The position numbers were made by a program, and so were the translations under genes. The notes beneath the pieces are model-generated. The model searched no databases. It was not told the DNA's origin and saw only the letters and a program-made list of their open reading frames with translations. A stretch of DNA of 59,017 nt from a virus: IMG/VR virus record IMGVR_UViG_3300027666_000002; one strand, written 5' to 3'. Below, piece by piece: positions 11,383 through 44,058 of the stretch; position 1 is the stretch's first letter; the number at the start of each line of letters is the position of its first letter.

Positions 11383-11388
11383 GACATT

Positions 11389-11723: not shown

Positions 11724-11728
11724 AGCTC

Positions 11729-24289: not shown

Positions 24290-24640
24290 TCAGTCCGTGA
24301 TGTACACGGCCACGCGGTACGTGGCGTGGTCCGTGTCGAGCAGGGACACCTCGACGTTGCGGCGGCCGTCGACCTCGACCGGCCAGGCGACCTCACGCAC
24401 GAGCAGCCAGCCGCAGGGCTGCGCCTCGGCGCGCACCCGCAGGGCGTGGTTGCGTGCTGGCTGGCCGGGGAACACCATGTCGACGGTGATGGTCTCGTCC
24501 TGGACCAGCGCTGCGGCCACGCGGGGCGGCAGGCGAAGCTGGTCGTCCTCGATGTCGGCGTCGGTGATGCGGATGACGGCGGTGACGTGCGAGTCCTGCA
24601 CGTAGGTGAACTGGGGCATTGCCTGCAGGTTCTCGATCAT
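24290..24640 (-). CDS. hypothetical protein
   Basis: 116-aa ORF behind a promoter/leader cassette. Confidence 0.8.
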   Translation of the reverse strand: MIENLQAMPQFTYVQDSHVTAVIRITDADIEDDQLRLPPRVAAALVQDETITVDMVFPGQPARNHALRVRAEAQPCGWLLVREVAWPVEVDGRRNVEVSLLDTDHATYRVAVYITD

Positions 24641-24646
24641 GATCTG

Positions 24647-24721
24647 GGTCCTTCCCGAAGGTTGTTCCGAATGAGGTAAGACTACCCCGGACGGCAGTGG
24701 GTGTCAAACCGTCCGGGGTAG
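24647..24721 (-). promoter_or_regulatory. phage promoter + leader cassette embedded in a 13-bp hairpin
   Basis: Minus strand: TTGACA (24707..24702), 17 nt, TAGTCT (24684..24679). Arms 24709..24721 / 24682..24694 (CTACCCCGGACGG/CCGTCCGGGGTAG). GGAACAACC (24668..24660), GGGAAGGACC (24656..24647). Confidence 0.75.
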
Positions 24722-24725
24722 TCCC

Positions 24726-24932
24726 TCAGAGCCAGTAGGTCAGGTAACCGATGTAGGCACCCTCGGGGGTGTTGACGGGGATATTGAAGGACTGCTTGTC
24801 AGTGCAGACGTAACCGGTGGCTGCGGTGATGATGCGCCGGCACTTGTCTGCGCGGGCCGCCAGCTCGGCGCGCTGATCGGCGGAAAGCTCGACACCCTGG
24901 GCGGTGAGCATGTCGCGGGCGGTGATGATCAT
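24726..24932 (-). CDS. hypothetical protein
   Basis: 68-aa ORF behind a cassette. Confidence 0.8.
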   Translation of the reverse strand: MIITARDMLTAQGVELSADQRAELAARADKCRRIITAATGYVCTDKQSFNIPVNTPEGAYIGYLTYWL

Positions 24933-24936
24933 TTCG

Positions 24937-25019
24937 GGTCCTTCCCCTCGGGGTTGTTCCTGGCTGATAAAACCATGCTAGCCCCCTGCGGTAGTGGGTG
25001 TCAACCGCAGGGGGCTAGC
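24937..25019 (-). promoter_or_regulatory. phage promoter + leader cassette embedded in a 15-bp hairpin
   Basis: Minus strand: TTGACA (25004..24999), 18 nt, TAGCAT (24980..24975). Perfect arms 25005..25019 / 24977..24991 (GCTAGCCCCCTGCGG). GGAACAACC (24960..24952), GGGAAGGACC (24946..24937). Confidence 0.75.
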
Positions 25020-25031
25020 AACCTTCCCCGG

Positions 25032-25739
25032 TCAGGCCTTGGGACACTCGGCGCAGGTCATGTAGGCGAACAGGCCACGGTGCCACGGGTTCTCGCACAC
25101 ATCGGCCTGCGAGGCCGGCGCGTCGTACTGGGCAGGGAACTTCGCGTGCATCCGAGCCTGGCGCATGCAGCCCTGGGCGCGGCACTCCTCCAGCTTGTAC
25201 GTCCAGAATCCGCGCTTGCCCCACCGGTCAGCGAAGTGCGGGTTTCCCGTGGACGGCGTGTAGGTGACGGCGACCTCGCTGTAACCCACGTCCGTGGTCC
25301 AGACACCCCAGTCGTGCCCCTCAGCCTTGCCGTGCTGGGCCTGGGCCAGCTCGACGGCATAGGACGCCTCGTCAGCGTAGGAGCGCGTCATGGCCCACTT
25401 GGCGTCGTGGGCGGCCAGGGGGACGATGGTGTCTCCGATGTTGTCCAGCCGGTGCCAGATGGTGGAGCCAGAGCCGTCGGAGAAGGCGGAACGGATGCCG
25501 ACCTCGTAGCCGCAGCCGCCCCATCCGGTGCGCAGTCCGACCAGGATCACGTTCACCATGGTGTGGCCGGTTTGCCTGTCGGTGCAGATGATGACGGGCG
25601 TCTCGCCGAGGGCGGCCAGCGCGTGGCGCATCTTGCCACCAGTCCAGCGGTAACGGTCGTCGTCGGTGATCCGCTCGCTGAGATCCTGGGCGCGCAGGAT
25701 GCAGGTTGTCCCGCTGGTGGTCTCGGTGGCCTTGATCAT
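25032..25739 (-). CDS. hypothetical protein (Cys-rich C-terminus)
   Basis: ATG at 25739 behind a cassette. 3' part of ORF-track 25032..26021. Confidence 0.75.
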   Translation of the reverse strand: MIKATETTSGTTCILRAQDLSERITDDDRYRWTGGKMRHALAALGETPVIICTDRQTGHTMVNVILVGLRTGWGGCGYEVGIRSAFSDGSGSTIWHRLDNIGDTIVPLAAHDAKWAMTRSYADEASYAVELAQAQHGKAEGHDWGVWTTDVGYSEVAVTYTPSTGNPHFADRWGKRGFWTYKLEECRAQGCMRQARMHAKFPAQYDAPASQADVCENPWHRGLFAYMTCAECPKA

Positions 25740-25745
25740 GTCCTG

Positions 25746-25810
25746 GGTCCTTCCCTCGGTGGGTTGTTCCTGATGAGAGAAGACTATCCCACTGCGACCA
25801 TGGGTGTCAA
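25746..25810 (-). promoter_or_regulatory. phage promoter + leader cassette
   Basis: Minus strand: TTGACA (25810..25805), 18 nt, TAGTCT (25786..25781). GGAACAACC (25770..25762), GGGAAGGACC (25755..25746). Confidence 0.7.
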
Positions 25811-26140
25811 TACCGAAGTCCGGACAGTTCGCGCGGCGGCCACCTCGGCACGGCGCCGCATACCCACCTCGCCGCCCTGGTGCGCCTGACAGGGAACGCA
25901 GCTCGGCTGGATGTTGCCGCGCCGGTAGCTTCCGCCGTCCACGCCGAGGTGCAGGCGGTCCGGCGAGACGTTGTCGACGTCGAGCACGTACAGGCAGTGC
26001 GGGGAGCGCTGCAGGAAGCACGCCACGAACTCGCCGTCGCCGAAGTGCTCAACCAGCCACTCCCTGCGGCGCCTGCGGCTGTAGCTGGATCCGCGATCGT
26101 TGCGGTTGGACCGGGATCGCCGGTCGGCAGGCCTGGTCAT
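25784..26140 (-). CDS. HNH-like (beta-beta-alpha-Me) protein with a degenerate motif
   Basis: 118 aa, RBS GGAAGGTGAGAC. ...DRLHLGVDGGSYRRGNIQPSCVPCQAHQG resembles DHI..GG....N...C..CN..K but lacks the first His. The stop TAG lies in the -10 of the next promoter. Confidence 0.4.
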   Translation of the reverse strand: MTRPADRRSRSNRNDRGSSYSRRRRREWLVEHFGDGEFVACFLQRSPHCLYVLDVDNVSPDRLHLGVDGGSYRRGNIQPSCVPCQAHQGGEVGMRRRAEVAAARTVRTSVLTPMVAVG

Positions 26141-26143
26141 GTC

Positions 26144-26317
26144 TCACCTTCCGTGTAGCGAGTTGAGCAGCTCCACGAACGCGGGGCCACCGAGGAACGC
26201 CGCCCCGAACGCCAGGACGGCCAGGAGGAGCACGAACGCGCTGGCGCCGACCAGAATGGCCACGGCGGCGCCAGCGCGGCGCAGGAGCCGCCTAGGGGCG
26301 CTCGATGGAGTCTTCAC
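26144..26317 (-). CDS. small membrane protein (57 aa; start uncertain)
   Basis: Hand-found frame ...AVAILVGASAFVLLLAVLAFGAAFLGGPAF..., GC3-rich. GTG at 26317 overlaps the end of 26292..26480. Confidence 0.35.
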   Translation of the reverse strand: MKTPSSAPRRLLRRAGAAVAILVGASAFVLLLAVLAFGAAFLGGPAFVELLNSLHGR

Positions 26318-26480
26318 CGCGCCTGGCCTCTTGGGCTTCGTCCCGGTCCTGCGCCTTCGCCATCTGCTCGGCGGTCCTGTTGCGCGCGCCGGTGCCCATG
26401 AGGCCGGCGGCGATGGACGCGGCCGCGTCCAAATTGACCTTGTCGCGCGCTGCCTGCACCTGCTTGTTGGAGTGACCCAC
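26292..26480 (-). CDS. hypothetical protein
   Basis: 62-aa ORF, GTG start with AAAGGA upstream. Confidence 0.6.
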   Translation of the reverse strand: MGHSNKQVQAARDKVNLDAAASIAAGLMGTGARNRTAEQMAKAQDRDEAQEARRGEDSIERP

Positions 26481-26483
26481 TGT

Positions 26484-26765
26484 TCAAGATCCTTTCTGTT
26501 GGGTTGCCCGGCTTCCCGGGACGTCGGGACGGCCGTTGTGCACGTGCACCGCCAGGAGGCCGTTGGCCACCGAGGTCAGGCAGTCGGCCGGGATAGTGAC
26601 GTCGCCGTCGTCAGACTGCAGCACGACGGACCCGTCATCGTCGAGGCGCCACGCCCAGAGGGCCCCGTAGGGCCGTGGGCCGCCAACGCGAGGATTGTGA
26701 GGCTGGACCCGCCAGGGCTCGGTCCCGGTGGCCTGCGGGAGCGGATGCTGTCCGGAGGGAATCAC
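26484..26765 (-). CDS. hypothetical protein
   Basis: 93-aa ORF. GTGA overlap with the upstream stop. Confidence 0.65.
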   Translation of the reverse strand: MIPSGQHPLPQATGTEPWRVQPHNPRVGGPRPYGALWAWRLDDDGSVVLQSDDGDVTIPADCLTSVANGLLAVHVHNGRPDVPGSRATQQKGS

Positions 26766-27052
26766 TTGGTCCCCTGCACAGCGATGGCGAGACCCAGCAG
26801 TGTGGCGGTGTCGTCCAGGGCGTTGGCGCCGAGGGCGACACGGGCGGCGTGCGCGCGGCCGTCGGACTGCTCCGCGTCGAGCACGATGGCATCCCCCAGG
26901 GGGCCCATCTCGCCCTGCGTGTCGACCACGCCGAAGGACTTCAGGTTGGAGCCGGGCAGTCGGGTCCAGTACACGCGATAGCGGGCATTGGGCAGGTCGG
27001 CGTCTCCCAGGCTCATGCTGTCGAGCAGGTTGATTTTGTGGGTCACTCTCAT
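26762..27052 (-). CDS. hypothetical protein
   Basis: ATG at 27052 with GGAG upstream. 3' part of ORF-track 26762..27229. Confidence 0.65.
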   Translation of the reverse strand: MRVTHKINLLDSMSLGDADLPNARYRVYWTRLPGSNLKSFGVVDTQGEMGPLGDAIVLDAEQSDGRAHAARVALGANALDDTATLLGLAIAVQGTK

Positions 27053-27104
27053 GATCGTCTCCGGGGGTGTGCGTTGAAACGTGTCAAGGTGATCTAGGGG
27101 GGCG

Positions 27105-27139
27105 GTGGCCGGCGCCCAAGGAAGCGGGGCGCCGGCCAC
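27105..27139 (-). terminator. stem-loop terminator
   Basis: 13-bp perfect inverted repeat gtggccggcgccc (27105..27117) / gggcgccggccac (27127..27139), 6 nt after the stop at 27145. Confidence 0.65.
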
Positions 27140-27144
27140 GAGGT

Positions 27145-27429
27145 CTAGCGCGGGACGGCGTACCAGCCATCGGGGGTCGGCTGGTCGTTGTCGTCGATGA
27201 GCAGCACGTGACGCGGCATCCTGTTCCACGAGGGGGTCTGGTTGGGGCCCTTGATGGCGGCCGTCACCGTGCCGTGCACCGAGATGATCCAGCGCTGTCG
27301 ACCCTCCGCGTCCGCCTCGAACGGCCGGACGTCGAGCGCGCGGACGGCGCCCACCTGGCGCTTGGGGCCGACGTTGACGGACAGCGGCGTGCCGTCCGGG
27401 GCGGTGAAGTTGATCGTCCGCTTGGCCAT
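27145..27429 (-). CDS. hypothetical protein
   Basis: ATG at 27429 behind a cassette. 3' part of ORF-track 27145..27657. Confidence 0.75.
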   Translation of the reverse strand: MAKRTINFTAPDGTPLSVNVGPKRQVGAVRALDVRPFEADAEGRQRWIISVHGTVTAAIKGPNQTPSWNRMPRHVLLIDDNDQPTPDGWYAVPR

Positions 27430-27436
27430 GATCTTG

Positions 27437-27504
27437 GGTCCTTCCCCTCGGGGTTGTTCCTGGCTGATGGGAGAACTGTACCCCACCAGATGGGTGGGTG
27501 TCAA
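27437..27504 (-). promoter_or_regulatory. phage promoter + leader cassette
   Basis: Minus strand: TTGACA (27504..27499), 18 nt (CCCACC/GGTGGG dyad), TACAGT (27480..27475). GGAACAACC (27460..27452), GGGAAGGACC (27446..27437). Confidence 0.7.
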
Positions 27505-27507
27505 CGG

Positions 27508-27539
27508 GGGAGGGGCCCCAGTTTCCCGGGGCCCCTCCC
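27508..27539 (-). terminator. stem-loop terminator abutting the next promoter
   Basis: 12-bp perfect inverted repeat gggaggggcccc (27508..27519) / ggggcccctccc (27528..27539), between the stop at 27542 and the -35 at 27504. Confidence 0.7.
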
Positions 27540-27541
27540 GG

Positions 27542-27754
27542 CTAGCTGTAGATCCACTCTTGGCAGAGGTCGTGGGCGTCGCGCAGGGTGAGGATCTCGT
27601 TGCCGTCCTGGTCAGCCACCCACTCGGCGAGCTCATGATCCCGGACGCTGTAGCCACCGTCCTGGCGGAGATCCACGGTGTAGCGGGCGCTGCCGGTGAG
27701 CGTGGCGGCGGCGATCTGGGCGGCCTGCTCGGCGGGGGTCAGCATGTTAGCCAT
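27542..27754 (-). CDS. hypothetical protein
   Basis: 70-aa ORF flanked by its own cassette and terminator. Confidence 0.8.
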   Translation of the reverse strand: MANMLTPAEQAAQIAAATLTGSARYTVDLRQDGGYSVRDHELAEWVADQDGNEILTLRDAHDLCQEWIYS

Positions 27755-27757
27755 GGT

Positions 27758-27827
27758 GGTCCTTCTCTCTGTGGAGTTGTTCCTTGCTGATGAGAGAAGA
27801 TTACCCCACGGCGGACATGGGTGTCAA
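27758..27827 (-). promoter_or_regulatory. phage promoter + leader cassette
   Basis: Minus strand: TTGACA (27827..27822), 18 nt, TAATCT (27803..27798). GGAACAACT (27783..27775), GAGAAGGACC (27767..27758). Confidence 0.7.
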
Positions 27828-27850
27828 CCCCCTCGGGCACTCCGAGGGGG
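27828..27850 (-). terminator. stem-loop terminator directly fused to the -35 of the next promoter
   Basis: 9-bp perfect inverted repeat ccccctcgg (27828..27836) / ccgaggggg (27842..27850), 5-nt loop. Confidence 0.65.
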
Positions 27851-27872
27851 AGTTCACTCGAACGGACCAACG

Positions 27873-28232
27873 TCACGCGGGCAGGGCGACCGCCTTCGCC
27901 TCGACCAGGCACACCGCGAGCAGGTGGTAGCAGGTGCGCCCGTTCTGTCCGGCCAGGCACGTGCACAGGGTCCGGTCCGTGCGGTAGCGGCCGCCGTCGG
28001 TGGTGACCGTGTAGAAGCTGTCCTGCGCGTTCTTGACCACGGCACCGTTCGCCAGGGCGGTCAGCGCGCGGCCCACCAGGCCGGTCGAGGTGCGCTGGAC
28101 GGCCTCGGCGATGGCCGCGTCGTACTTGCGCTGACAGACCGGGCCACGGCCACGCTCGATGCTCTTGGGGTCCTTCAGCGCACGGTGGCAGCGCTTGCAC
28201 GTGGCGTTCACGGGGGCGGTGGTCTCGGTCAT
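27873..28232 (-). CDS. zinc-finger protein: N-terminal CxxC..GxGPxC (DUF6011-like) plus C-terminal SWIM (CxC..CxH)
   Basis: ATG at 28232 behind a cassette. ATCKRCHRALKDPKSIERGRGPVCQRK and CTCLAGQNGRTCYH motifs (families recalled). Confidence 0.6.
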   Translation of the reverse strand: MTETTAPVNATCKRCHRALKDPKSIERGRGPVCQRKYDAAIAEAVQRTSTGLVGRALTALANGAVVKNAQDSFYTVTTDGGRYRTDRTLCTCLAGQNGRTCYHLLAVCLVEAKAVALPA

Positions 28233-28238
28233 CTCGGT

Positions 28239-28302
28239 GGTCCTTCCCTGGCGGGTTGTTCCTGACACGCACGAAGTTACCCCATGCAGCAGTGGGTGTC
28301 AA
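28239..28302 (-). promoter_or_regulatory. phage promoter + leader cassette
   Basis: Minus strand: TTGACA (28302..28297), 17 nt, TAACTT (28279..28274). GGAACAACC (28262..28254), GGGAAGGACC (28248..28239). Confidence 0.7.
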
Positions 28303-28336
28303 CACCGGGTTCCGGAGAAGGTCATCTTGGGACGTT

Positions 28337-28804
28337 TCAATGCCGGCTCTGCCGGCAGGTCCAGCCAGCCGGCGCATGCCACATCGGCCACCCACAGCAG
28401 TCCGGCACCGTGGCCGGCACGGCGGAGTGGTCGCACCAGCTCGGACACTGGGCGGGCGTGTGCGTGTGGAACGTGGACATGGCTGGGTAGGCCGGCGAGG
28501 ACCAGGGGACCGTCCAGCCGTAGAAGTTGCGCCGGAAGTAGTCTGCCCGGTCGCGCTCCGCCTGGTTGCGCGCCGAGCCCCACATCGCCAGGTAGGTCTC
28601 CAGGTCATACTCGGGCTTGTCGTTCGTGCCGGTGGTGCGCCCGTCGGAGACGCCTGCGTAGGCCCATTCCCGAGGCCCAGGGATGCGCTCCAGGCCCACG
28701 CCGCACACGTGGCACACGAGAGGCGTGCCACCGGCGCAGACGGCCGCAGGGTGGTCTGGGACGGGCGGAAGGCCCCGCCGGCTCGACAGGGCCTTCACTG
28801 TCAC
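28337..28804 (-). CDS. Cys/His/Trp-rich hypothetical protein
   Basis: GTGA overlap at 28801..28804. 3' part of ORF-track 28337..28993. Confidence 0.6.
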   Translation of the reverse strand: MTVKALSSRRGLPPVPDHPAAVCAGGTPLVCHVCGVGLERIPGPREWAYAGVSDGRTTGTNDKPEYDLETYLAMWGSARNQAERDRADYFRRNFYGWTVPWSSPAYPAMSTFHTHTPAQCPSWCDHSAVPATVPDCCGWPMWHAPAGWTCRQSRH

Positions 28805-28926
28805 TCGCTCCCCGGAGTGGTCTTCTTGGCCATCTCGGCCTGCAGTCTCTCGCGCAGGGCGCGCACTTCCTCGGTCTTCTCGGCTGGCGTCTGTTCGTCC
28901 CGGTCTGGCTTGGGCGTGTCGGTCAA
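28801..28926 (-). CDS. small charged hypothetical protein (41 aa)
   Basis: Hand-found TTG at 28926 with GAGAAGGGA upstream. GC3-rich LTDTPKPDRDEQTPAEKTEEVRALRERLQAEMAKKTTPGSE. Confidence 0.4.
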   Translation of the reverse strand: MTDTPKPDRDEQTPAEKTEEVRALRERLQAEMAKKTTPGSE

Positions 28927-28989
28927 CTTGGTGATCCCTTCTCGACGGAGCGACGGGGCCAACCTGGCGCGCAGGCCCCGTCAGGTTGG

Positions 28990-29352
28990 TCACCGCTTGC
29001 GGCTCTGGGCCCAGCGGTGCGAGGTGGCGGACGTCGCGATGCCGATCGCGGCACCCAGGCCCCGTGTCCGACCGGCCTCGACGCGAACGCCGTCGCGGTC
29101 GCAGTAGTCGACCACGTAGCGCAGCTCGGCGCGGTCGAACCAGATGGCCGCCGAGGTGCCGGCCTCGGAGCCGTCGGTGAAGGCGTTCCGCACGTCGCGG
29201 GTGACGACATTCCAGTACTGGTCTGCCGCGCGGTAGAGCACGGTGACGGTGCCCGCGTAGTCGGCGGAGGTGGCCACCTGGCGGCGACCGATCGACTGGG
29301 TGCCGGTGAGGCCATGGAAGTTGGGGGCCTGGTTGAGGATCGCGACGCTCAT
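28990..29352 (-). CDS. hypothetical protein
   Basis: ATG at 29352 behind a cassette. 3' part of ORF-track 28990..29529. Confidence 0.75.
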   Translation of the reverse strand: MSVAILNQAPNFHGLTGTQSIGRRQVATSADYAGTVTVLYRAADQYWNVVTRDVRNAFTDGSEAGTSAAIWFDRAELRYVVDYCDRDGVRVEAGRTRGLGAAIGIATSATSHRWAQSRKR

Positions 29353-29359
29353 GGTGGTG

Positions 29360-29424
29360 GGTCCTTCCCGGTTGGGGTTGTTCCTGATGACGTGAACATC
29401 ACCCACCACGGAAGTGGGTGTCAA
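29360..29424 (-). promoter_or_regulatory. phage promoter + leader cassette (weaker -10)
   Basis: Minus strand: TTGACA (29424..29419), 18 nt containing the CACCCAC/GTGGGTG dyad, GATGTT (29400..29395). GGAACAACC (29384..29376), GGGAAGGACC (29369..29360). Confidence 0.6.
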
Positions 29425-29666
29425 CCCTCTGCGCGTAGTTTCTGAAGAAGTCCCACCAGTGCGCCGGTCGGCGTGGACGCGTAGACCCCGGCGAACCGCC
29501 TCGGTGTGCGCGCCGGATACCTTGCGCAACTGGCGTACCAGCTACTTCCTGACCAGTGCAGGCCCAGGCCGATGTGGTCCGACGTGGGACGCCAGGTGCA
29601 GCGACGGTGGCCGGTCCAGATTCTGGTGGCCTGCTCGATGATGTCCTGCTCGATGCGTGCGCTCAC
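29421..29666 (-). CDS. hypothetical protein
   Basis: GTGA overlap at 29663..29666. The stop TGA lies inside the TTGACA of the next promoter. Confidence 0.6.
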   Translation of the reverse strand: MSARIEQDIIEQATRIWTGHRRCTWRPTSDHIGLGLHWSGSSWYASCARYPARTPRRFAGVYASTPTGALVGLLQKLRAEG

Positions 29667-29872
29667 GGGTGTGTCTCCAGTAGGTCGCGGTCTTCGAGCG
29701 CCAGCAACGTGGCCAGCGTCTCGTGCATGTGGTCGATGGCGTCCAGCCACACGTCCTCGCGGTGGACCCGATCCAGCCAGAGCAGGCCGGGGATGGCGTC
29801 GGTCCAGGCGTAGGCGGTGGTCCACATGCTGGCCGCCAGGGTGACGGTCAGCATGATCAGCGCCCCGATCAT
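29663..29872 (-). CDS. hypothetical protein with N-terminal TM segment
   Basis: 69-aa ORF. ATGA overlap with the upstream stop. Confidence 0.65.
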   Translation of the reverse strand: MIGALIMLTVTLAASMWTTAYAWTDAIPGLLWLDRVHREDVWLDAIDHMHETLATLLALEDRDLLETHP

Positions 29873-30285
29873 CGCGTGGCCGCCTGTCGTGCATCGCGCA
29901 CGGCCGCGCCGAGCTCGGTCAGGATGTGCTGCGGCCGGCTGAATTCGTCGTAGGTTGGCGCCTTCTCCAGCAGCCCGCGATTCATGAGCGCGAGCACGGT
30001 GCCCACCTTGACGGTGTCGCTCGTGCGAACGTGCAGGACGTCGGGGTCAGGGGTGCGCTCGGCGCGGTAGGCGTCCACGGCCTGCTTGCAGACGCGGGAT
30101 CCCTCGCAGTAATCGCTGGCGCCCATCCGGTCGCCGCGCAGGCTCTCGTGTCCTGGGCAGTAGTCGGCCACGGTGTCGCCGGTGAGGTCGTCTCGGTTGA
30201 CGGTGCCCTGGGCGGCGAGCAGGACTGCGGCCATGGGGACTGTGAGCTTGCTGGCGAGTAGCTGGGCGCTGATGGCCTGGCTCAT
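29869..30285 (-). CDS. hypothetical protein
   Basis: ATG at 30285 behind a cassette. 3' part of ORF-track 29869..30381. Confidence 0.75.
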   Translation of the reverse strand: MSQAISAQLLASKLTVPMAAVLLAAQGTVNRDDLTGDTVADYCPGHESLRGDRMGASDYCEGSRVCKQAVDAYRAERTPDPDVLHVRTSDTVKVGTVLALMNRGLLEKAPTYDEFSRPQHILTELGAAVRDARQAATR

Positions 30286-30292
30286 GATCTTT

Positions 30293-30356
30293 GGTCCTTC
30301 CCGGGTGGGTTGTTCCTGGCATCCACAACAGTACCCACCGCGACGGTGGGTGTCAA
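30293..30356 (-). promoter_or_regulatory. phage promoter + leader cassette
   Basis: Minus strand: TTGACA (30356..30351), 17 nt = CCCACCG-TCG-CGGTGGG dyad, TACTGT (30333..30328). GGAACAACC (30316..30308), GGGAAGGACC (30302..30293). Confidence 0.7.
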
Positions 30357-30373
30357 GTAGTTGGGGCGGCCGC

Positions 30374-30501
30374 GTCAGCAACGGCCAACCCGCTGTCCCC
30401 CGCCACGTGACCCGCGTGCAACGGGTCCGCCGAGCTTTCGCGGCGACCCCTCGCGGGGTGGGCCACTACTCCTCACGGCGTGCACGGCGTGGCGTGCTGA
30501 C
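30374..30501 (-). ncRNA. ~128-nt multi-helix rod domain (3' module / terminator of the ncRNA locus)
   Basis: Nested closing helices: 30374..30380/30495..30501 (7 bp), 30401..30407/30488..30494 (7 bp), 30415..30420/30481..30486 (6 bp). Inner hairpins include ACCCC-GCGA-GGGGU at 30446..30459. No ORF. Confidence 0.45.
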
Positions 30502-30506
30502 GTACG

Positions 30507-30577
30507 CGCTTGGGGCCGGAGTCGAACCGGCGTCCCGGGGGGTGAGCCCGTGCATGAACCACTCTGCTATCCCAAGC
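30507..30577 (-). tRNA. tRNA-like element (anticodon loop CUCACCC, nominal CAC/Val; non-canonical)
   Basis: 7-bp perfect acceptor GCUUGGG/CCCAAGC. T arm GCCGG-UUCGACU-CCGGC. GG in the D loop, U33. But the D stem is 3 bp, the anticodon stem is 4 bp plus an A.G pair, position 37 is C, the variable region is 3 nt, and no CCA is encoded. Confidence 0.5.
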
Positions 30578-31368
30578 TCCCGGTCGCTACGGCAGTCCAC
30601 GCCTCACGTGGCCGGGTTTTTCCATGATCTGGAAGACGACACGCCTGGCAGGGACAGGCCCAGGCGGTGTCGATGCCGCCTGGTTATGGCGTCGCTTGGC
30701 CGATCTCGACCCAGCCGCCCTTGCGCCACACGATCGAGAGGTGACTTGGCATGCCGTCAAGCTGTGAGCCCGGAGTGGCCGGTTCCCTGCGGCCCGACCA
30801 CTCCGGCAGGACCGTTTTTTCACCGTGGAGTCCCGCCGCCACGGGCGCAACCCCTGACCTCTCCGACGGGGTATGCGCCTCTCCTCGGGGAAGTAGGCGC
30901 ACCGGGGGAAAGGAAGGGGCGCCCGCTGGAGGTGGGAGAGTTCAGGGCCCGGTAGCTGCCAGCTTGTACCGGGCAACCCCCGGCTTCCAGCGCTCACGCG
31001 CTCGTAGCTGGCAGGGGAGCTGTGGATGGTCCGTCGGCACGCCCGGCGACTTGCGCTCCAGGGCCCTGTTTCACTTCAGGGAGAGGTGTAGCGACGGGGG
31101 TTCAACCCGCACCTGGAGACCATCACTCGATCCCTCGATCAACGTGCCGGGCTCATTGCCAGCGGGTCCTACTCGTGTGAGCGACAGCAGGCCTTCGCGG
31201 TGTGACCCGACCCCGTCCGTAGGGATCTTGTCGCGGACGGGGGGTCGGGACCGATGGCGATCGACCAGACCGTTTGGTCCCGTCCGCTGATCTTGAAGTT
31301 GTCAAGTTCCGGGCGCCGGAGGGGTACCTGACTCGGTCCCCATCGAGGATTGAGTTTCCCCTCCGGCA
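30578..31368 (-). ncRNA. candidate large (~790 nt) structured non-coding RNA, family unknown
   Basis: Driven by promoter 31375..31403. No SD/ATG context and no GC3-biased ORF. Many long nested helices (10, 14, 9, 9 and 8 bp; coordinates given in findings). Ends at the tRNA-like element. Confidence 0.5.
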
Positions 31369-31745
31369 TGACCGACATTACCCATGGCTGCATGGGGTGT
31401 CAAGCCGTCACGCTGATTCGCTGGCACCAACTTCGCCACGACCAGCCCCACCAGGTGGTCCTGTATATCCAGGAGGACCACCAGTCGCCCGAGGCACGGT
31501 GGGCACCAGTACCTCTCGCCGGTCATCTCGCTGCCGGCCCAGGTCGGACGCACGTGCGTCCACAGGCGCGCGACGTCGAGCCGCACCTGGTTCAGCCCCC
31601 TGTGCACGAACACTCCACACAGAGGTGCGTTGTCCTGGCTGCGCTCCTTCCGGCCTGGCCGGAAGCCCGGCAGGTGCAGGTGAATGCGACCCGGTCCCGG
31701 CGGCTCCAGGGCAACCAGGGCCTCTAGGCCAGGCGTGGGGTTCAC
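31302..31745 (-). CDS. hypothetical protein (last ~30 codons are probably incidental read-through into the promoter/ncRNA)
   Basis: GTGA overlap at 31742..31745. GC3 is high down to ~31400 and drops after the embedded promoter. Confidence 0.55.
   Translation of the reverse strand: MNPTPGLEALVALEPPGPGRIHLHLPGFRPGRKERSQDNAPLCGVFVHRGLNQVRLDVARLWTHVRPTWAGSEMTGERYWCPPCLGRLVVLLDIQDHLVGLVVAKLVPANQRDGLTPHAAMGNVGHAGGETQSSMGTESGTPPAPGT
31375..31403 (-). promoter_or_regulatory. phage promoter driving the ORF-free locus
   Basis: Minus strand: TTGACA (31403..31398), 17 nt with the CCCATG-CAGC-CATGGG dyad, TAATGT (31380..31375). Not followed by the GGAACAACC/GGAAGGACC leader. Confidence 0.65.
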
Positions 31746-35604: not shown

Positions 35605-35748
35605 CTATTCGCAGGTGTAGGTGACGAGTTCGAGCGTGTTGGGATCGATCTTGGTCGCGGTGTGCGGCTTGCCGCTGTCTCGCAGCGACCGGGCGATCAT
35701 GGTGCCGCAGCCGCGTGGACAGTTGACGAGGGGGTCATCCTTGGCCAT
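35605..35748 (-). CDS. small zinc-ribbon-like protein (47 aa)
   Basis: ATG at 35748 behind a promoter. MAKDDPLVNCPRGCGTMIARSLRDSGKPHTATKIDPNTLELVTYTCE. Confidence 0.5.
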   Translation of the reverse strand: MAKDDPLVNCPRGCGTMIARSLRDSGKPHTATKIDPNTLELVTYTCE

Positions 35749-35750
35749 CT

Positions 35751-35810
35751 GGTCCTACTTCCTGCTCGGGTGTACCCCTGAATTCTACCCCCAACGAACA
35801 GGGGTGTCAA
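35751..35810 (-). promoter_or_regulatory. phage promoter with variant leader
   Basis: Minus strand: TTGACA (35810..35805), 17 nt, TAGAAT (35787..35782). SD GGAAGTAGGACC (35762..35751). No GGAACAACC box. Confidence 0.65.
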
Positions 35811-36165: not shown

Positions 36166-36641
36166 CTGTCGCTCGCGGGCGGGGCCACGTGGTCCATAGT
36201 GGCCTGCTTGGTGGACTGGGTGACGTCGAGTTCCTGGCCGGCGTGCTCCGTGTAGAAGACGAAGGTGACCACGATCTGACTGGCGTTGTTCTTGCTGACG
36301 CGGAACGTGTGTGCGCCAGCCGCTGCGGAGTTCTTCTGGGCCCACCGCCGAACGGTGTCGTCGTTGTGCTTGTGCACGTTGAAGCGGCGTTGGGTGGTGA
36401 AGCTGTTCTTGCCGAGCGCGTGGCGATCCTCGGGCTCGATGAGCCACGCGGGGATACCGCTGACTCCGCCGATCTGGCTGCTACTGAGTAGCTCCATCAG
36501 ATGCTCGGGCAGCAGCTCGAACTCGGCGATCCGGCGGCCACTGGTGATGTCTACGATGACCAGGGACATGTACCGGTAGGGCTCCATGTTGGAGACGACG
36601 GGCGAGAGGCGCATGGTCAGGTGCGCGTTGGGGTCTGGCAT
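36162..36641 (-). CDS. hypothetical protein
   Basis: 159-aa ORF behind a cassette. Confidence 0.8.
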   Translation of the reverse strand: MPDPNAHLTMRLSPVVSNMEPYRYMSLVIVDITSGRRIAEFELLPEHLMELLSSSQIGGVSGIPAWLIEPEDRHALGKNSFTTQRRFNVHKHNDDTVRRWAQKNSAAAGAHTFRVSKNNASQIVVTFVFYTEHAGQELDVTQSTKQATMDHVAPPASDR

Positions 36642-36647
36642 GGTCTC

Positions 36648-36709
36648 GGTCCTTCCAGGGGGGTTGTTCCGGAGACCTCAAGCTACCCCATCCTGTCGGT
36701 GGGTGTCAA
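36648..36709 (-). promoter_or_regulatory. phage promoter + leader cassette
   Basis: Minus strand: TTGACA (36709..36704), 18 nt, TAGCTT (36685..36680). GGAACAACC (36670..36662), GGAAGGACC (36656..36648). Confidence 0.7.
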
Positions 36710-38771: not shown

Positions 38772-39470
38772 TCAGGCAGGGATCACCGAGAGGTGCTTGG
38801 CGAACGCCACGGCGCACTTCTCGCGTGTGTCCAGGTTGAGGACGGGGACGCCAGCTTCATCGAGGGCCGCGAAGAAGCCCTCTTCGATCATCGCCAACTG
38901 GCGTTCGGTGACGGCGGCGAGCCGCTCATCGATGTTGAGCCGGGCGATCTTGAACAGGAAGTCGCCGGCCCGGTCCATGGCGCGCTCGAACAACTGGACG
39001 ATCGCGCGGGCGGTCTCCCCGTAGTCGGTGGAGTACTCCAGGCTGTCAAGTTCCTCGACCTTGACGCGCATGGCGTCTTTCCAGGCGATGACCTCTCCCG
39101 CGATGGCTTTGAGGGCGTTCAGCGGGTCGTGGACCGGGCCCATGTCGAACTGGGACACCATGCCCTGCAGCTCCTCGTGGACGCGCTCGCGGGATTCACG
39201 CTTCTTGGCCTGCGGGCTGGTGCCGCCGTGCATACGGCACCGCTTCTGGTTCTTGACGGGGGAGCTGTGGCAGATACCGCCGGGCGCCTTGCGCGCCTTG
39301 GCGCTGCACCGAGGCTTCCCGTTGGGTCCGTACAGCACGCTGTCGAGCACGCGGTAGCCGTCTCGGATGGGCTCGCCGCTGCGGTCGGGGAACTCGATGC
39401 GATTGCGGTGGGCGTCGAGGTCGATGGGCTCGGGGAGTTCGCCAGGGTCCTGGTCGTCGTGGTCGCTCAA
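38772..39470 (-). CDS. terS: terminase small subunit
   Basis: 232 aa, TTG start with AGGAGG upstream. The ...KNQKRCRMHGG... motif is recalled from actinophage small terminases. Directly upstream of terL. Confidence 0.65.
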   Translation of the reverse strand: MSDHDDQDPGELPEPIDLDAHRNRIEFPDRSGEPIRDGYRVLDSVLYGPNGKPRCSAKARKAPGGICHSSPVKNQKRCRMHGGTSPQAKKRESRERVHEELQGMVSQFDMGPVHDPLNALKAIAGEVIAWKDAMRVKVEELDSLEYSTDYGETARAIVQLFERAMDRAGDFLFKIARLNIDERLAAVTERQLAMIEEGFFAALDEAGVPVLNLDTREKCAVAFAKHLSVIPA

Positions 39471-39473
39471 CGT

Positions 39474-39536
39474 GGTCCTCCTGGCTTGATGGTCAACTTC
39501 TTCAGATCATGCTACCCCGTTGAGCGTGGGTTACAA
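39474..39536 (-). promoter_or_regulatory. variant phage promoter for the terminase genes
   Basis: Minus strand: TTGTAA (39536..39531), 16 nt, TAGCAT (39514..39509). SD AGGAGGACC (39482..39474). Confidence 0.5.
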
Positions 39537-41644: not shown

Positions 41645-42463
41645 TCAGAACGGCATGGCGCGACGGGTGGGTCCAGTGATCCGCACGAGCTGGGAGCCGC
41701 CGAACAGGCGCTCGATCAGCCGCTCGTTGTAGCGCTTGCGGATCTGCGGACCGTCCAGGTTGGTGGTGATGATGCAGGGGCGGCCGTTGTGGCTGCGGTA
41801 GTGCCCGAGCCGGTACAGCTGATCTCCAGCCCACTCGGTGAGCCGCTCGGCGCCGAAGTCGTCCAGCACCAGCACCGGGGCCACCTCGAACTGGGCCATA
41901 TCGACGTCGAGGCCACCCTGTGCAGGCTTGACGGCGTCGATCATCTGCTGAGTCGTGACGAATGTGACCGGCACAACGTCCTCGGTGAGCAGGATGCGGG
42001 TCAGCGCTGCGGCGGCCCACGTCTTTCCGGTGCCCACCGGGCCCATCAGGACCAGCGTGCGCGGCGGCGCACCGCTCTGGCGTGCCTGCCGGTAGTGGGC
42101 CAGCCAGGACAGCACGTCGTCGGTCCATGGCTCATCGGGCAGGCGTGCGTTCTGGTACTCGGCGGGCAGGCGCGACGTCAGGATGTCGGCCTGCCTCTGC
42201 AGTCGATCTTGCCGGAGCTGGGCTTCCTTGTCGGCCAGGAGCTTGTCCGCGCGGGCGCGGTTCTCTGACTTGCTCATGTCGAGCAGCTCGGGATCCACGC
42301 CACCGTGCCGGCGGGCCAGGTCGCTGACGGCGTCCGCGATGGCGTTACGACGTGCGGCAGAGGCGCGTGCAGCGGCTCGCCGTTCTACCTCGGCACGTAG
42401 CCGGGCGCTGTCGTCCATGCTCCAACCGTACCCATTATCGCTGTGGGGGGCAAGGCCGTTCAT
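41645..42463 (-). CDS. DnaC/IstB-like AAA+ helicase loader
   Basis: 272 aa. Walker A GPVGTGKT, Walker B VLVLDDFG. ATGA overlap with the upstream initiator-like gene. Confidence 0.8.
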   Translation of the reverse strand: MNGLAPHSDNGYGWSMDDSARLRAEVERRAAARASAARRNAIADAVSDLARRHGGVDPELLDMSKSENRARADKLLADKEAQLRQDRLQRQADILTSRLPAEYQNARLPDEPWTDDVLSWLAHYRQARQSGAPPRTLVLMGPVGTGKTWAAAALTRILLTEDVVPVTFVTTQQMIDAVKPAQGGLDVDMAQFEVAPVLVLDDFGAERLTEWAGDQLYRLGHYRSHNGRPCIITTNLDGPQIRKRYNERLIERLFGGSQLVRITGPTRRAMPF

Positions 42464-44005: not shown

Positions 44006-44053
44006 TTGCTACCCCATCTCGATGTGGGGTAGATTGACCTCAGCGAAGGGAGG
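44006..44053 (+). promoter_or_regulatory. dyad-symmetric divergent control region; variant promoter for the plus-strand early block
   Basis: TTGCTA (44006), 18 nt, TAGATT (44030), SD GAAGGGAGG (44045). Palindrome CTACCCCA (44009..44016) / TGGGGTAG (44025..44032). Read on the other strand it gives AATCTA-18-TAGCAA. Confidence 0.55.
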
Positions 44054-44058
44054 CGAAC

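What the first reader, a model, noticed from the sequence alone, without database searches (positions are those of the whole stretch)
24647..31403. About 20 copies of one promoter, 14 with a conserved 5' leader (start-associated cassette)
The consensus is (G)TTGACACCCA(C/T)-N-GGGG-TAnnnT with a 17-18 nt spacer. Canonical minus-strand copies have their -35 at 24707, 25004, 25810, 27504, 27827, 28302, 29424, 30356, 31403, 35810 and 36709. Canonical plus-strand copies are at 10738, 11322, 11661, 48195 and 51958. Variants are at 9909 (GTGACA, capsid operon), 10692, 39536 (terminase) and 44006. In 14 copies the -10 is followed by (C)ATCAG..GGAACAACC, a C-run, 3-6 nt, then GGGAAGGACC and the ATG 5-7 nt later. 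The capsid gene uses the same SD context. The hexamers look like host sigma70/HrdB-type. The extra invariant positions (CCCA after the -35, GGGG before the -10, the GGAACAAC box) are not needed for that. They suggest a phage-specific factor or a translational control element, comparable in spirit to the start-associated sequences described in cluster K mycobacteriophages. The C-run can pair with the G-run of the SD.
Basis: partly seen in the sequence, partly recalled or inferred. Interest (0 to 1): 0.7.

Follow-up and report, generated by a model that had tools for sequence, protein, structure and literature searches.

The report
Repeated phage promoter–leader expression cassette
An uncultivated high-GC phage puts one near-identical bacterial-type promoter, fused to a fixed 5' leader and ribosome-binding site, in front of about 14 small genes of unknown function; this is a real, selected expression cassette of a kind already described in other phages, with some new details.

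Summary
The window holds 16 canonical TTGACA-CCC(A/C)…GGG(G)-TAnnnT promoters with 17-18 nt spacers, plus 5 variants. Fourteen carry the leader: GGAACAAC(C), 5-9 C/A-rich nt, GGAAGGACC, 3-9 nt, ATG.

The same cassette occurs about 70 times in some 12 related IMG/VR phage contigs that are only 67-78% identical to the window. Conserved blocks stay invariant while the interspersed blocks and flanks are at random identity. This points to selection, not recent duplication. The leader motif is not enriched in bacterial genomes.

The best reading is a portable expression module: a host sigma-A/sigma-70-type promoter with a G-run extended -10, an unstructured A/C-rich 5'UTR, a 7-nt Shine-Dalgarno, and ATG. 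It drives small accessory genes that are gained, lost and swapped between relatives.

About a quarter of family sites lie inside 10-19 bp perfect hairpins whose arms track each site's own -10 letters. These are probably 3'-end or terminator hairpins of the upstream gene.

The closest known systems are cluster K ESAS+SAS and T4-type PeSLs.

The proposed C-run/SD pairing is not supported: the leaders fold worse than shuffles. What recognises the invariant GGAACAACC box is unresolved.

The parts
10738..10814 (+). Full cassette: -35 10738-10743, -10 10761-10766, box 10782-10789, SD 10798-10806, ATG 10812. Drives a 163-aa protein with no family match.
11322..11391 (+). Full cassette driving an 84-aa protein with no family match. 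The promoter lies inside a perfect hairpin, 11310-11350.
11661..11731 (+). Full cassette driving a 133-aa protein with no family match. The promoter lies inside an 18-bp hairpin, 11648-11690.
48195..48262 (+). Cassette with variant box GGAACAACG and weaker SD GGAGAACC. Drives a 44-aa ORF.
51958..52032 (+). Full cassette with SD GGGAGGACC. Drives a 113-aa protein (phrog_22530, function unknown).
24638..24707 (-). Full cassette driving a 116-aa protein with no family match. An 18-bp hairpin, 24678-24725, encloses the -35, and its 3' arm runs into the -10 (GGGGTAGTC).
24930..25004 (-). Full cassette driving a 68-aa protein (phrog_25686, function unknown). A 16-bp hairpin, 24977-25019, encloses the -35.
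25737..25810 (-). Full cassette driving a 235-aa protein with no family match. The stop codon TAG of upstream ORF 25784-26140 is the first three bases of the -10.
27427..27504 (-). Full cassette driving a 94-aa protein. A separate 14-bp GC hairpin, 27508-27539, lies just upstream.
27752..27827 (-). Cassette with box GGAACAACT and SD GAGAAGGACC. Drives a 70-aa protein. A 9-bp hairpin, 27828-27850, abuts the -35.
28230..28302 (-). Full cassette driving a 119-aa protein.
29350..29424 (-). Full cassette with -10 GATGTT. Drives a 120-aa protein.
30283..30356 (-). Full cassette driving a 138-aa protein.
36639..36709 (-). Full cassette driving a 159-aa protein. The TGA stop of upstream gene 36678-37148 starts at the last T of the -10.
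35746..35810 (-). Promoter module (TTGACACCCC, -10 TAGAAT) without the GGAACAAC box. SD is AGTAGGACC. Drives a 47-aa ORF.
31375..31403 (-). Promoter module only, with no leader, SD or ORF. It heads about 1 kb of non-coding sequence, 31374 down to 30380, that includes a tRNA-like gene at 30506-30577.
9770..9909 (-). Variant promoter (GTGACA-N18-TAGCCT) of the major capsid gene. A box-like GGAGAACAC sits 9 nt after the -10. About 75 nt of extra leader follows, then GGAAGGACC-N6-ATG.
10664..10692 (-). Variant promoter (TCGACC-N17-GGGG-TACAGT), back-to-back with the 10738 cassette.
39468..39536 (-). Variant promoter (TTGTAA-N16-TAGCAT) before gene 38772-39470. The leader CCAGGAGGACC reads like the box and SD fused. 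The start codon is TTG.
42425..42453 (-).
44006..44061 (+). Variant promoter at the divergent region, heading the rightward operon (ERF, SSB). It contains the palindrome CTACCCCA-N8-TGGGGTAG. There is no box, and the SD is GGGAGG.

Best explanation
Each copy is a portable expression module that is conserved across a family of uncultivated high-GC (actinobacterial-type) phages.

(1) Promoter. It is read by the host principal-sigma holoenzyme: -35 TTGACA extended by CCCA(C/T), a 17-18 bp spacer, and a G-run extended -10 (GGGG-TAnnnT).

(2) Leader. Transcription probably starts about 7 nt after the -10, in the (C)ATCAG or GTCAG region. The 35-40 nt leader is kept free of structure. It carries CA-GGAACAAC-C a few bases from the 5' end, then a tract of only C and A.

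(3) Ribosome-binding site. The SD GGAAGGA can form 7 pairs with the 16S 3' tail CCUUUCU. It is followed by an invariant CC and then an ATG 3-9 nt downstream.

The module gives about 14 small accessory genes, and in modified form the capsid gene, their own strong transcription and translation start.

Where a co-directional gene ends just upstream, its 3'-end hairpin is placed beside the promoter or around it. In the latter case the -35 sits in the loop or 5' arm and the first bases of the -10 sit in the 3' arm.

Because the same roughly 75-bp module flanks many genes, it also marks the places where genes are inserted or swapped between relatives.

Shown here: the motif, its statistics, its conservation pattern, its position relative to genes, the lack of leader structure, the site-specific hairpins and the gene turnover.

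Inferred: promoter activity, the transcription start point, host RNA polymerase usage, the translational role of the leader and the terminator role of the hairpins.
For: Statistics and layout.

Orientation and position: every copy is co-directional with an ATG-started ORF 60-75 nt downstream, and all 70 family cassettes start with ATG.

Family conservation: the leader pattern occurs in 44 IMG/VR loci from about 12 contigs of 50-60 kb that are 67-78% identical to the window. Of 107 unique TTGAC[AC]-N16-19-TAnnnT sites, 102 start the spacer with CC and 80 carry the box.

Selection rather than duplication: conserved blocks are 98-100% identical, while internal variable blocks and flanks are 28-48% identical against about 28% expected at random. 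Orthologous genes keep the cassette, but its variable parts differ. The nearest neighbours of window cassettes are weakly similar copies in other genomes.

Not a host feature: 89 single hits in 596 Gb of bacterial genomes is about the chance number, and no genome has more than one.

The leader is tied to protein expression: the box and SD block occur together (90 of 94 cases) and never on promoter-less internal genes. The promoter that drives non-coding RNA and tRNA lacks the leader.

Unstructured leader. The segment between the box and the SD is composed of C and A only.

The G-run plus -10 is kept where the -35 is weak.

No phage RNA polymerase or sigma factor was found among the large ORFs that were scanned.

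Hairpins: 10-19 bp perfect stems occur at about 25 of 107 sites. A site's own -10 letters are mirrored upstream at 11 of 107 sites against 0.38 expected, p = 3e-13. Window examples fold with z of -3.6 to -5.0.

Gene turnover: cassette-preceded genes are replaced or inserted between relatives, while backbone genes stay in place.
Against: No transcript data exist, and the host is unknown. Promoter use, the start site and timing are therefore inferred from consensus alone.

Invariance of all 8-9 box bases and of the CC after the SD is more than an unstructured-leader requirement or the anti-SD pairing needs. A specific reader, protein or RNA, is implied but not identified.

The capsid leader keeps the box-like element next to the -10 while the SD is about 75 nt further on. 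This suggests the box is tied to the transcript 5' end or to promoter escape rather than to the ribosome-binding site.

The hairpins lack U-tracts. A standard terminator scan finds none on the gene strand in 24-37 kb.

The turnover contrast is small in number: 3 of 9 cassette genes against 7 of 11 backbone genes are shared with L007. This is not statistically significant.
Confidence: 0.7

Rival explanations
1. The conserved box and SD block (GGAAcaACC and GGAAggACC, 13-17 nt apart) form a two-part RNA site for a trans-acting factor. The factor would be a phage- or host-encoded translational repressor or activator, or an endoribonuclease. It would co-regulate all cassette mRNAs, in the manner of T4 RegA/RegB or CsrA-type two-site binding.
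For: The two blocks share 7 of 9 bases, and both are invariant in 70 cassettes from genomes that differ by 22-33%. The CC after the SD cannot pair with the 16S tail. The spacing between the blocks is flexible (5-9 nt gap), which suits RNA rather than duplex DNA. The blocks occur only together. A recurrent weak fold, GG..C..CCC-loop-GGG..G..CC, with purine internal loops appears in 8 of 14 leaders.
Against: No candidate RNA-binding protein was identified: the cassette-linked and neighbouring proteins have no informative family matches. The same SD and box-like element serve both small accessory genes and the capsid gene, which argues against a temporal-class-specific repressor. There is no covariation, because the blocks never vary.
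Confidence: 0.25
2. The GGAACAACC box acts at the DNA or transcription level as a downstream promoter element. It would be an initially transcribed sequence that speeds promoter escape, like the downstream regions of coliphage T5 early promoters (recalled from the literature, not checked here).
For: The box starts only 9-16 nt after the -10, at about +3 to +10. It is found only with promoters and never on internal genes. In the capsid leader the box-like element stays 9 nt from the -10 while the SD moves about 75 nt away.
Against: Four promoters lack it: 31403 (RNA-only), and 35810, 39536 and 44006. The distance to the -10 is bimodal, at 10-11 and 13-14 nt, which is loose for an element read within the polymerase.
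Confidence: 0.2
3. The spacer palindrome CCCAC-N7-GTGGG is an operator for a dimeric phage or host repressor that switches all about 20 promoters off together. Comparable cases are the cluster A stoperators and the phiC31 conserved inverted repeats (both recalled from the literature).
For: CCCA-N9-TGGG has fixed spacing in 47 of 52 sites. The pattern occurs 11 times against 0.6 expected, almost only in promoters. Lineages differ in the arms (CCCAC/GTGGG, or TACCCCCC/GGGGGGTA) but keep the symmetry, as reported for the cluster K ESAS (PMC3203893).
Against: About a third of sites lack the right half (they read ...CAGGGGG) yet keep CCCAC. There are no operator copies away from promoters. Complementarity beyond CCCA/TGGG is at the null level, 0.90 against 0.85 +/- 0.11. 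Where long symmetry exists it follows each site's own -10 letters, which indicates base pairing rather than a fixed protein site. No repressor or integrase was found among the proteins scanned.
Confidence: 0.15
4. The repeats are a selfish or recently amplified sequence with no role beyond its own spread.
For: The sequence is multicopy, sits at gene boundaries and is associated with gene turnover.
Against: Internal variable blocks and flanks are at random identity while the conserved blocks are invariant. The same pattern holds across genomes that are 67-78% identical. The sequence is always oriented with, and correctly spaced from, an ATG. No transposase-like gene or terminal repeats are present.
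Confidence: 0.03
5. GGAAC in the box is the -35 of a second promoter of the ECF-sigma type (GGAAC-N16-17-CGTT class).
For: The only support is the GGAAC letters themselves.
Against: No conserved -10-like element lies 16-17 nt downstream. That position falls in or after the SD, and both the box-to-SD and SD-to-ATG distances vary. A start there would remove the SD from the mRNA.
Confidence: 0.02

Closest known systems
Cluster K mycobacteriophage ESAS + SAS (Pope et al. 2011, PMC3203893; Freeman et al. 2024, PMC11373665)
   Same: Both have many copies per genome in the non-structural parts, and both are absent from the host. A SigA-like -35/-10 pair 17-18 bp apart carries an inverted repeat (ESAS). 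It is followed by an invariant asymmetric block that contains the SD but is conserved beyond what 16S pairing explains, 3-9 nt before a start codon that is nearly always ATG (SAS). Orthologous genes keep the element across subgroups, and the inverted-repeat arms differ between lineages. The function is still unproven in cluster K too.
   Different: There is no sequence similarity: GGAAGGACC against GGGATAGGAGCCC. Here the SD block almost never occurs without the promoter, whereas about half of the SAS lack an ESAS. Here there is an extra invariant 5'-proximal box, GGAACAACC. The phages are unrelated at the nucleotide level, and the capsid protein is at most 37% identical to any cultured phage.
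PeSLs, promoter-early stem-loop cassettes of T4-type phages (Arbiol et al. 2010, PMC2839356; Comeau et al. 2014, PMC4122927)
   Same: Both are composite motifs of a stem-loop, a near-consensus sigma-70 promoter (TTGACA-N17-TATAAT in RB49/phi1), an SD and a start codon. Both are repeated between small genes of unknown function in variable regions. Cassette-flanked genes are the ones inserted, deleted or replaced between relatives.
   Different: The hosts and phages differ (Gram-negative myoviruses there). In PeSLs the stem-loop lies upstream of the promoter. Here it often encloses the -35 and overlaps the -10, and only 6 of 16 window copies have a strong hairpin. PeSLs have no invariant leader box. 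Mini-circle excision was shown for PeSLs and is untested here.
Repeated intergenic regions of Gordonia cluster DR phage CaiB (PMC9302106) and the 50-bp motif of cluster DJ phage Vardy (PMC9671010)
   Same: Actinobacteriophages of about 60 kb with several copies of a conserved block set ending 4-11 nt before the start codon. CaiB has GAGAGGAC at -4 to -11, with conserved blocks further upstream.
   Different: The sequences differ, the copies are fewer (5-6), and no comparative or structural analysis has been published. CaiB's blocks form a GCGGG/CCCGC pair, which this leader lacks.
Cluster A mycobacteriophage stoperators and phiC31 conserved inverted repeats (recalled from the literature, not read here)
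   Same: Many copies of one short site spread over a phage genome and tied to transcription control.
   Different: Those are repressor-binding sites of temperate phages, and many of them lie away from promoters. Here every copy is a promoter, no repressor or integrase was found, and the long symmetry is site-specific base pairing.

Membership tests
Cluster K SAS | 13-bp asymmetric consensus GGGATAGGAGCCC (at most 2 mismatches) | tested here: not met
   The block here is GGAAGGACC. Only the general SD-containing character is shared.
Cluster K SAS | Lies 3-9 bp upstream of the start codon, which is mostly ATG, and is conserved beyond the 16S-pairing bases | tested here: met
   The SD-to-ATG gap is 3-9 nt. 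All 70 cassettes start with ATG. The invariant CC after GGAAGGA cannot pair with the 16S tail.
Cluster K SAS | Occurs with or without the upstream ESAS (about half each) | tested here: not met
   Ninety of 94 GGAAGGACC-plus-start sites have the box and promoter upstream. The exceptions are the capsid leaders, one variant box and one chance hit.
Cluster K ESAS | A 46-47 bp motif with SigA-like hexamers 17-18 bp apart plus an imperfect 15-17 bp inverted repeat | tested here: inconclusive
   The hexamers and the 17-18 bp spacing are met. The inverted repeat here is short (CCCAC/GTGGG) or, in about a quarter of sites, a long perfect site-specific one. There is no sequence similarity.
PeSL (T4-type) | Near-consensus sigma-70 early promoter followed by an SD and a start codon | tested here: met
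PeSL (T4-type) | Stem-loop (terminator of the preceding gene) immediately upstream of the promoter | tested here: inconclusive
   Six of 16 window copies have strong hairpins (z -2.3 to -5.0): two are adjacent to the promoter and four enclose the -35. About 25 of 107 family sites have such hairpins. The others have none, and the upstream ORF can end inside the promoter.
PeSL (T4-type) | Concentrated in variable regions rich in genes of unknown function, next to indels and replacements between close relatives | tested here: met
   Synteny map: F10/F11 against F12/F22, F19 against F23, and F20/F21 against F25/F16 are swapped between cassettes, while the backbone genes stay. The numbers are small. 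The cassette-driven proteins have no assigned function.
PeSL (T4-type) | Recombination between tandem cassettes (mini-circle excision or integration) | not testable with these tools
   This needs PCR or long-read detection of circles or deletions in phage stocks.
Sigma-70/sigma-A promoter | -35 TTGACA and -10 TAnnnT, 16-19 bp apart, upstream of and co-directional with a gene | tested here: met
Sigma-70/sigma-A promoter | Transcription starts 5-9 nt downstream of the -10 | not testable with these tools
   No RNA data exist and the host is unknown. The window comes from the ENA metagenome assembly ERZ27247767.
Intrinsic terminator | GC-rich stem-loop followed by a U-tract | tested here: not met
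   The stems are strong, but the tails have few T. The scan that requires 5 T in 8 bases finds none on the gene strand in 24-37 kb.
Known RNA families (Rfam 15) | Match to a curated covariance model | tested here: not met
   There are no matches at gathering score in the whole window.

The most novel reading that the evidence does not exclude
The invariant pair GGAACAACC … GGAAGGACC may be a dedicated tag on the mRNA 5' end. A specific trans-acting factor, phage-encoded or a host ribosome-associated component, would read it to set the translation or stability of all cassette transcripts. This would be the same unsolved logic as the cluster K start-associated sequences. Separately, the hairpins that enclose the -35 and pair with the -10 may couple the end of one transcription unit to the start of the next.
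Probability: 0.25. Interest if true: 0.6.

Novelty: new variant of a known kind. Interest (0 to 1): 0.4.

Why it matters
The cassette gives a clean, comparative example of a repeated promoter-plus-leader module in actinobacterial-type phages: about 80 copies across a dozen or more genomes.

The positions under selection can be read off directly: the CCCA after the -35, the G-run before the -10, a 5'-proximal box, and the SD plus CC.

The role of conservation beyond the Shine-Dalgarno in cluster K start-associated sequences has been open since 2011. This family offers an independent system in which to test it.

The module is also a candidate strong, compact expression part for high-GC bacteria.

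It also marks where accessory genes enter and leave these genomes.

Tried and rejected
- Leader RNA structure, including C-run/SD pairing. Leaders are not more stable than shuffles, and mostly less stable. Rfam finds nothing.
- Extended palindrome in the spacer as an operator or hairpin. There is no complementarity beyond CCCA/TGGG above the null.
- Host origin of the leader. The scan of 185,579 species genomes gives only chance-level single hits.
- Close cultured relatives. Megablast finds none. Weak blastn hits go to Gordonia phages. The capsid protein is at most 37% identical to any cultured phage.
- Recent duplication or intragenomic homogenisation. Variable blocks are at random identity, and nearest neighbours are weakly similar copies in other genomes.
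- Bidirectional promoter reading of the long palindromes. The mirrored -10 lacks the final T in 13 of 14 sites, which is not different from base composition.
- ECF-type promoter reading of GGAAC. There is no conserved -10 partner.
- tblastx synteny comparison. It was swamped by high-GC noise and was replaced by called proteins and blastp.
- Literature string search for the motifs. It returned only unrelated primer matches.
- phiC31 literature. It is not in the library.
- Promoter-only pattern scan of viral contigs. It gave mostly unrelated low-GC coding hits, but also revealed a sister lineage.
- 16S complementarity of the box. It could not be tested because the host is unknown.

Full report
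**What the window is.** The window is a 59-kb sequence with 64-71% G+C from an ENA metagenome assembly (ERZ27247767, contig k141_899108, 59,031 bp). It encodes:
- a large terminase, 37145-38758(-);
- a major head protein, 7916-9772(-) (phrog_777, E=2e-64);
- a portal fused to an ADP-ribosyltransferase domain, 16917-20492(-);
- an endolysin with a PASTA domain;
- a replication initiator and a DnaC-like loader;
- ERF and SSB proteins;
- tail genes.

It has no near match among 50,697 deposited phage genomes. Its capsid protein is at most 37% identical to those of Gordonia, Arthrobacter or Microbacterium phages. It is therefore an uncultivated actinobacterial-type siphovirus with an unknown host.

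**Checking the observation.** TTGACACCCA with up to one mismatch occurs 16 times against 2.6 expected, and none of 100 shuffles reach this.
- All 16 have a TAnnnT (once GATGTT) 17 or 18 nt downstream.
- A loose scan for -35-like hexamers followed by TAnnnT shows that all TTGACA-N16-19-TAnnnT sites in the genome belong to this family.
- GGGGTAnnnT alone occurs 14 times against 2.2 expected, every time at one of these sites. This includes three whose -35 is degenerate.
- Fourteen copies carry GGAACAAC 9-15 nt after the -10, then a C/A tract, then GGAAGGACC or a close variant, then ATG.
- GGAAGGACC occurs 12 times in the window: 11 in cassettes and once before the capsid gene.

The description is correct. 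The stated span simply covers only 9 of about 21 sites.

**Selected motif or recent duplication?** Within the window, the conserved blocks of 11 strictly parsed copies are 98-100% identical. The three middle letters of the -10, the -10-to-box and SD-to-ATG segments and 30 nt of upstream flank are 28-30% identical, which is the random level for this composition. The spacer centre, the 30 nt downstream and the C/A-only box-to-SD tract are 39-48% identical.

The leader pattern GGAACAACC-N4-10-GGAAGGACC picks up 44 loci from about 12 IMG/VR contigs of 50-60 kb. These align to the window at only 67-78% identity. They contribute most of the 70 distinct full cassettes found in the window plus these loci (11 of the 70 are the window's own), all with the same invariant blocks and different variable blocks.

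Among 107 unique TTGAC[AC]-N16-19-TAnnnT sites in the family, 102 begin the spacer with CC and 80 carry the box. Orthologous genes carry the cassette in different genomes, but with different variable segments and even different hairpin arrangements. The nearest neighbour of each window cassette is a weakly similar copy in another genome, so there is no sign of intragenomic homogenisation.

The same leader pattern in one genome per bacterial and archaeal species gives 89 isolated hits spread over all phyla. That is about the number expected by chance for 18 fixed bases in 596 Gb, and no genome has more than one. The leader is therefore specific to this phage family, not a host feature.

**Anatomy.**
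- Upstream of the -35 there is no information, apart from a G at -1.
- TTGACA is followed by C, C, C (93-97%), A (83%) and C/T.
- The middle of the spacer is free.
- The four bases before the -10 are G (84%, 99%, 93%, 70%).
- The -10 is TAnnnT.
- A pyrimidine-rich stretch follows. It often ends in CATCAG or GTCAG, which is where a start about 7 nt after the -10 would fall.
- The box is really CA-GGAACAAC-C. It begins 9-16 nt after the -10, with modes at 10-11 and 13-14 nt.
- The 5-9 nt between the box and the SD are almost only C and A, usually ending in G.
- GGAAGGA can form seven pairs, one of them G-U, with the 3' end of 16S rRNA (CCUUUCU-3'). This rests on established knowledge of the actinobacterial anti-SD, not on a test here.
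- The invariant CC that follows the SD cannot pair with that tail.
- The start codon is ATG in all 70 cassettes.

**Leader RNA.** Predicted leaders from the putative start to 15 nt past the ATG are not more stable than shuffles. Mean z is +0.28 over 70 cassettes with mononucleotide shuffles. For the 14 window leaders with dinucleotide-preserving shuffles, z ranges from -0.86 to +1.98, and 13 of 14 are at or above -0.01.

The leader therefore appears to be kept free of structure, which fits its G/U-poor composition. A weak fold recurs because the two conserved blocks are partly complementary (GG..C..CCC-loop-GGG..G..CC). It has no energetic support and, because the blocks never vary, no covariation support. 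The two blocks are also a direct repeat sharing 7 of 9 bases (GGAAnnACC).

**Which part belongs to what?**
- The box and the SD block occur together in 90 of 94 family sites. Neither occurs on promoter-less internal genes.
- The promoter at 31403 has no leader. It is followed by about 1 kb without codon periodicity that contains a tRNA-like gene. Its first 200 nt are strongly structured (z = -2.88). Relatives have tRNA-Glu and tRNA-Val genes at that place.
- The promoter module is therefore separable, and the leader goes with protein-coding targets. This favours a post-transcriptional role for the leader.
- Against that, the capsid gene keeps a box-like GGAGAACAC (GGAGAACAAC in relatives) 9 nt after its -10, while GGAAGGACC sits about 75 nt further on next to the ATG. 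The box thus follows the transcript 5' end rather than the ribosome site.
- Use of the same SD and box-like element by small accessory genes and by the most abundant virion protein argues for a general high-expression signal rather than a class-specific switch.

**The spacer symmetry.** CCCAY-N7-RTGGG occurs 11 times against 0.6 expected, 10 of them in promoters, and the CCCA-N9-TGGG spacing is fixed in 47 of 52 sites. However, complementarity does not extend beyond the conserved CCCA/TGGG more than in cross-paired controls: 0.90 against 0.85 +/- 0.11 extra pairs. About a third of sites have ...CAGGGGG instead of ...GTGGGG while keeping CCCAC. A fixed dimeric operator is therefore not well supported.

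At about 25 of 107 sites, a perfect inverted repeat of 10-19 bp encloses the -35.
- The right arm is the G-run plus the first 3-5 bases of the -10.
- The left arm lies just after the stop codon of the upstream gene.
- In some sites TTGAC itself is paired with GTCAA in the spacer, leaving a 7-nt loop ACCCACG.
- The window examples are 11310-11350, 11648-11690, 24678-24725 and 24977-25019. They fold with z of -3.6 to -5.0.
- Two more copies (27504, 27827) have separate GC hairpins directly upstream.

The left arm follows each site's own variable -10 letters. The reverse complement of the two bases before the -10 plus TAxyz is found upstream at 11 of 107 sites, against 0.38 expected from cross-site controls (p = 3e-13), with nine different xyz triplets. 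More distant lineages keep the symmetry with different arms (TACCCCCC/GGGGGGTA, CTCTACCCC/GGGGTAGAG).

This is base pairing, not a protein site. From their position, these are most likely the 3'-end hairpins (terminators or stabilisers) of the upstream gene, compacted onto the next promoter. They lack U-tracts, and a standard terminator scan finds none on the gene strand, so the terminator role is inferred.

Where there is no hairpin, the upstream ORF can end inside the promoter. TAG at 25784-25786 is the start of the -10. TGA at 36678-36680 begins at the last T of the -10.

**What the cassettes drive, and gene turnover.** The downstream proteins are 44-235 aa. Ten have no family match, and five match only PHROG families of unknown function.

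A map of called proteins across the window region 22.8-37.2 kb and the syntenic loci of six relatives shows a stable backbone: F9-F4-F1-F2-F5, F3-F6 and F7-F8-F0. Most of the cassette-preceded genes differ between genomes:
- F10/F11 against F12/F22 after F5;
- F19 against F23 after F6;
- F20/F21 against F25/F16 after F0.

One genome holds both F12 and F10 in tandem. The replaced units are bounded by cassettes on both sides. The numbers are small: 3 of 9 cassette genes against 7 of 11 backbone genes are shared with L007. This is suggestive, not proven.

**Comparison with known systems.**
- Cluster K mycobacteriophages have a 13-bp SAS (GGGATAGGAGCCC) 3-9 nt before mostly ATG starts. It is conserved beyond what 16S pairing explains and is absent from the host. 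Upstream of about half of the SAS sits an ESAS (PMC3203893). The ESAS is now described as a 46-47 bp motif with SigA-like hexamers 17-18 bp apart plus an imperfect inverted repeat. The role of both elements is still unknown (PMC11373665, PMC12699233).
- T4-type PeSLs are composite motifs of a stem-loop, a sigma-70 early promoter, an SD and a start codon. They sit between genes of unknown function in variable regions and are implicated in modular shuffling (PMC2839356, PMC4122927).
- Similar but unanalysed repeats were noted in Gordonia phages CaiB and Vardy (PMC9302106, PMC9671010).

The present cassette has the same architecture as ESAS+SAS and PeSLs but shares no sequence with them. It differs in four ways:
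- the tight coupling of the SD block to the promoter;
- the extra invariant 5' box;
- hairpins that enclose the -35 rather than precede the promoter;
- its occurrence in an uncultivated phage family.

A sister lineage (L142, L143) has the same promoter (gtgTTGACACCCAC…GG-TAnnnT, then TTGTCAG) with a looser A/C-rich leader (…ACAGCCCCGA(A/G)GGAG). The exact box is therefore lineage-specific, while the leader style is general.

**Verdict.** It is best filed as a new variant of a known kind of phage regulatory cassette.

The most likely mechanism is a host principal-sigma promoter with a G-run extended -10, plus an unstructured leader with a strong SD. Together they give autonomous, strong expression of accessory genes. 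The module also serves as a boundary for gene exchange.

What reads the invariant GGAACAACC and the CC after the SD remains open. The main alternatives are a trans-acting RNA-binding factor, a promoter-escape element and a spacer operator. They are ranked in the rivals section with the experiments that would separate them.

Noticed in passing
window 30380-31374 (-), tRNA-like 30506-30577 (-): About 1 kb has no codon periodicity. It is driven by a canonical cassette promoter that lacks the translation leader. The first 200 nt (31368-31170) fold far better than shuffles (z = -2.88, 0 of 200), with a 10-bp GC stem. Patches are conserved in relatives, which carry tRNA-Glu and tRNA-Val genes at this place. 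ARAGORN calls tRNA-Val(CAC) in the window, but Rfam scores it weakly. This may be a structured non-coding RNA plus a decaying tRNA cluster.
   Followed up: partly
window 16917-20492 (-): A 1191-aa protein has an N-terminal portal domain (phrog_776, E=1e-81). Its C-terminal ADP-ribosyltransferase domain matches Pfam ADPrib_exo_Tox (E=2e-13) and, weakly, the PHROG for Alt-like RNA polymerase ADP-ribosyltransferases. An injected RNAP-modifying enzyme could bear on early promoter use. This was not examined.
   Followed up: no
window 9770-9873 (-) and orthologues in L022, L003, L032, L036: The capsid gene has a C-rich leader of about 110 nt between the box-like GGAGAACAC and the SD. It is conserved in relatives. 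It is not more structured than shuffles (z = -0.41). Its role is unknown.
   Followed up: partly
window 25784-25786 and 36678-36680 (-): The stop codons of upstream genes lie inside the next promoter. TAG forms the first three bases of the -10 at 25786-25781. TGA begins at the last T of the -10 at 36685-36680. This is very tight packing of coding and regulatory signals.
   Followed up: partly
L142 (IMGVR_UViG_3300044693_000184) and L143 (IMGVR_UViG_3300001686_000011): A sister phage lineage has the same promoter (gtgTTGACACCCAC…GG-TAnnnT, then TTGTCAG). Its A/C-rich leader is less rigid (…ACAGCCCCGA(A/G)GGAG). It would be useful for asking which leader positions co-vary with which phage genes.
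   Followed up: partly
window 39468-39536 (-): In the variant promoter before gene 38772-39470, the leader reads ATCAAGCCAGGAGGACC. The box and the SD block look fused at their shared GGA, as a deletion between the two direct repeats would produce. The start codon is TTG.
   Followed up: no
window 13115-15820 (-): A 901-aa protein combines matches to head maturation protease and portal-associated PHROGs with a 2'-5' RNA ligase-like segment (Pfam PF13563, borderline). It is the only part of the window with detectable nucleotide similarity to Gordonia phages.
   Followed up: no
window 43976-44061: The divergent region lies between the leftward replication genes and the rightward ERF/SSB operon. 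It holds an 8-bp perfect palindrome, CTACCCCA-N8-TGGGGTAG, spanning the spacer of the rightward promoter. The palindrome is conserved in L005, L017 and L020. It is a candidate control point for the early operons.
   Followed up: no
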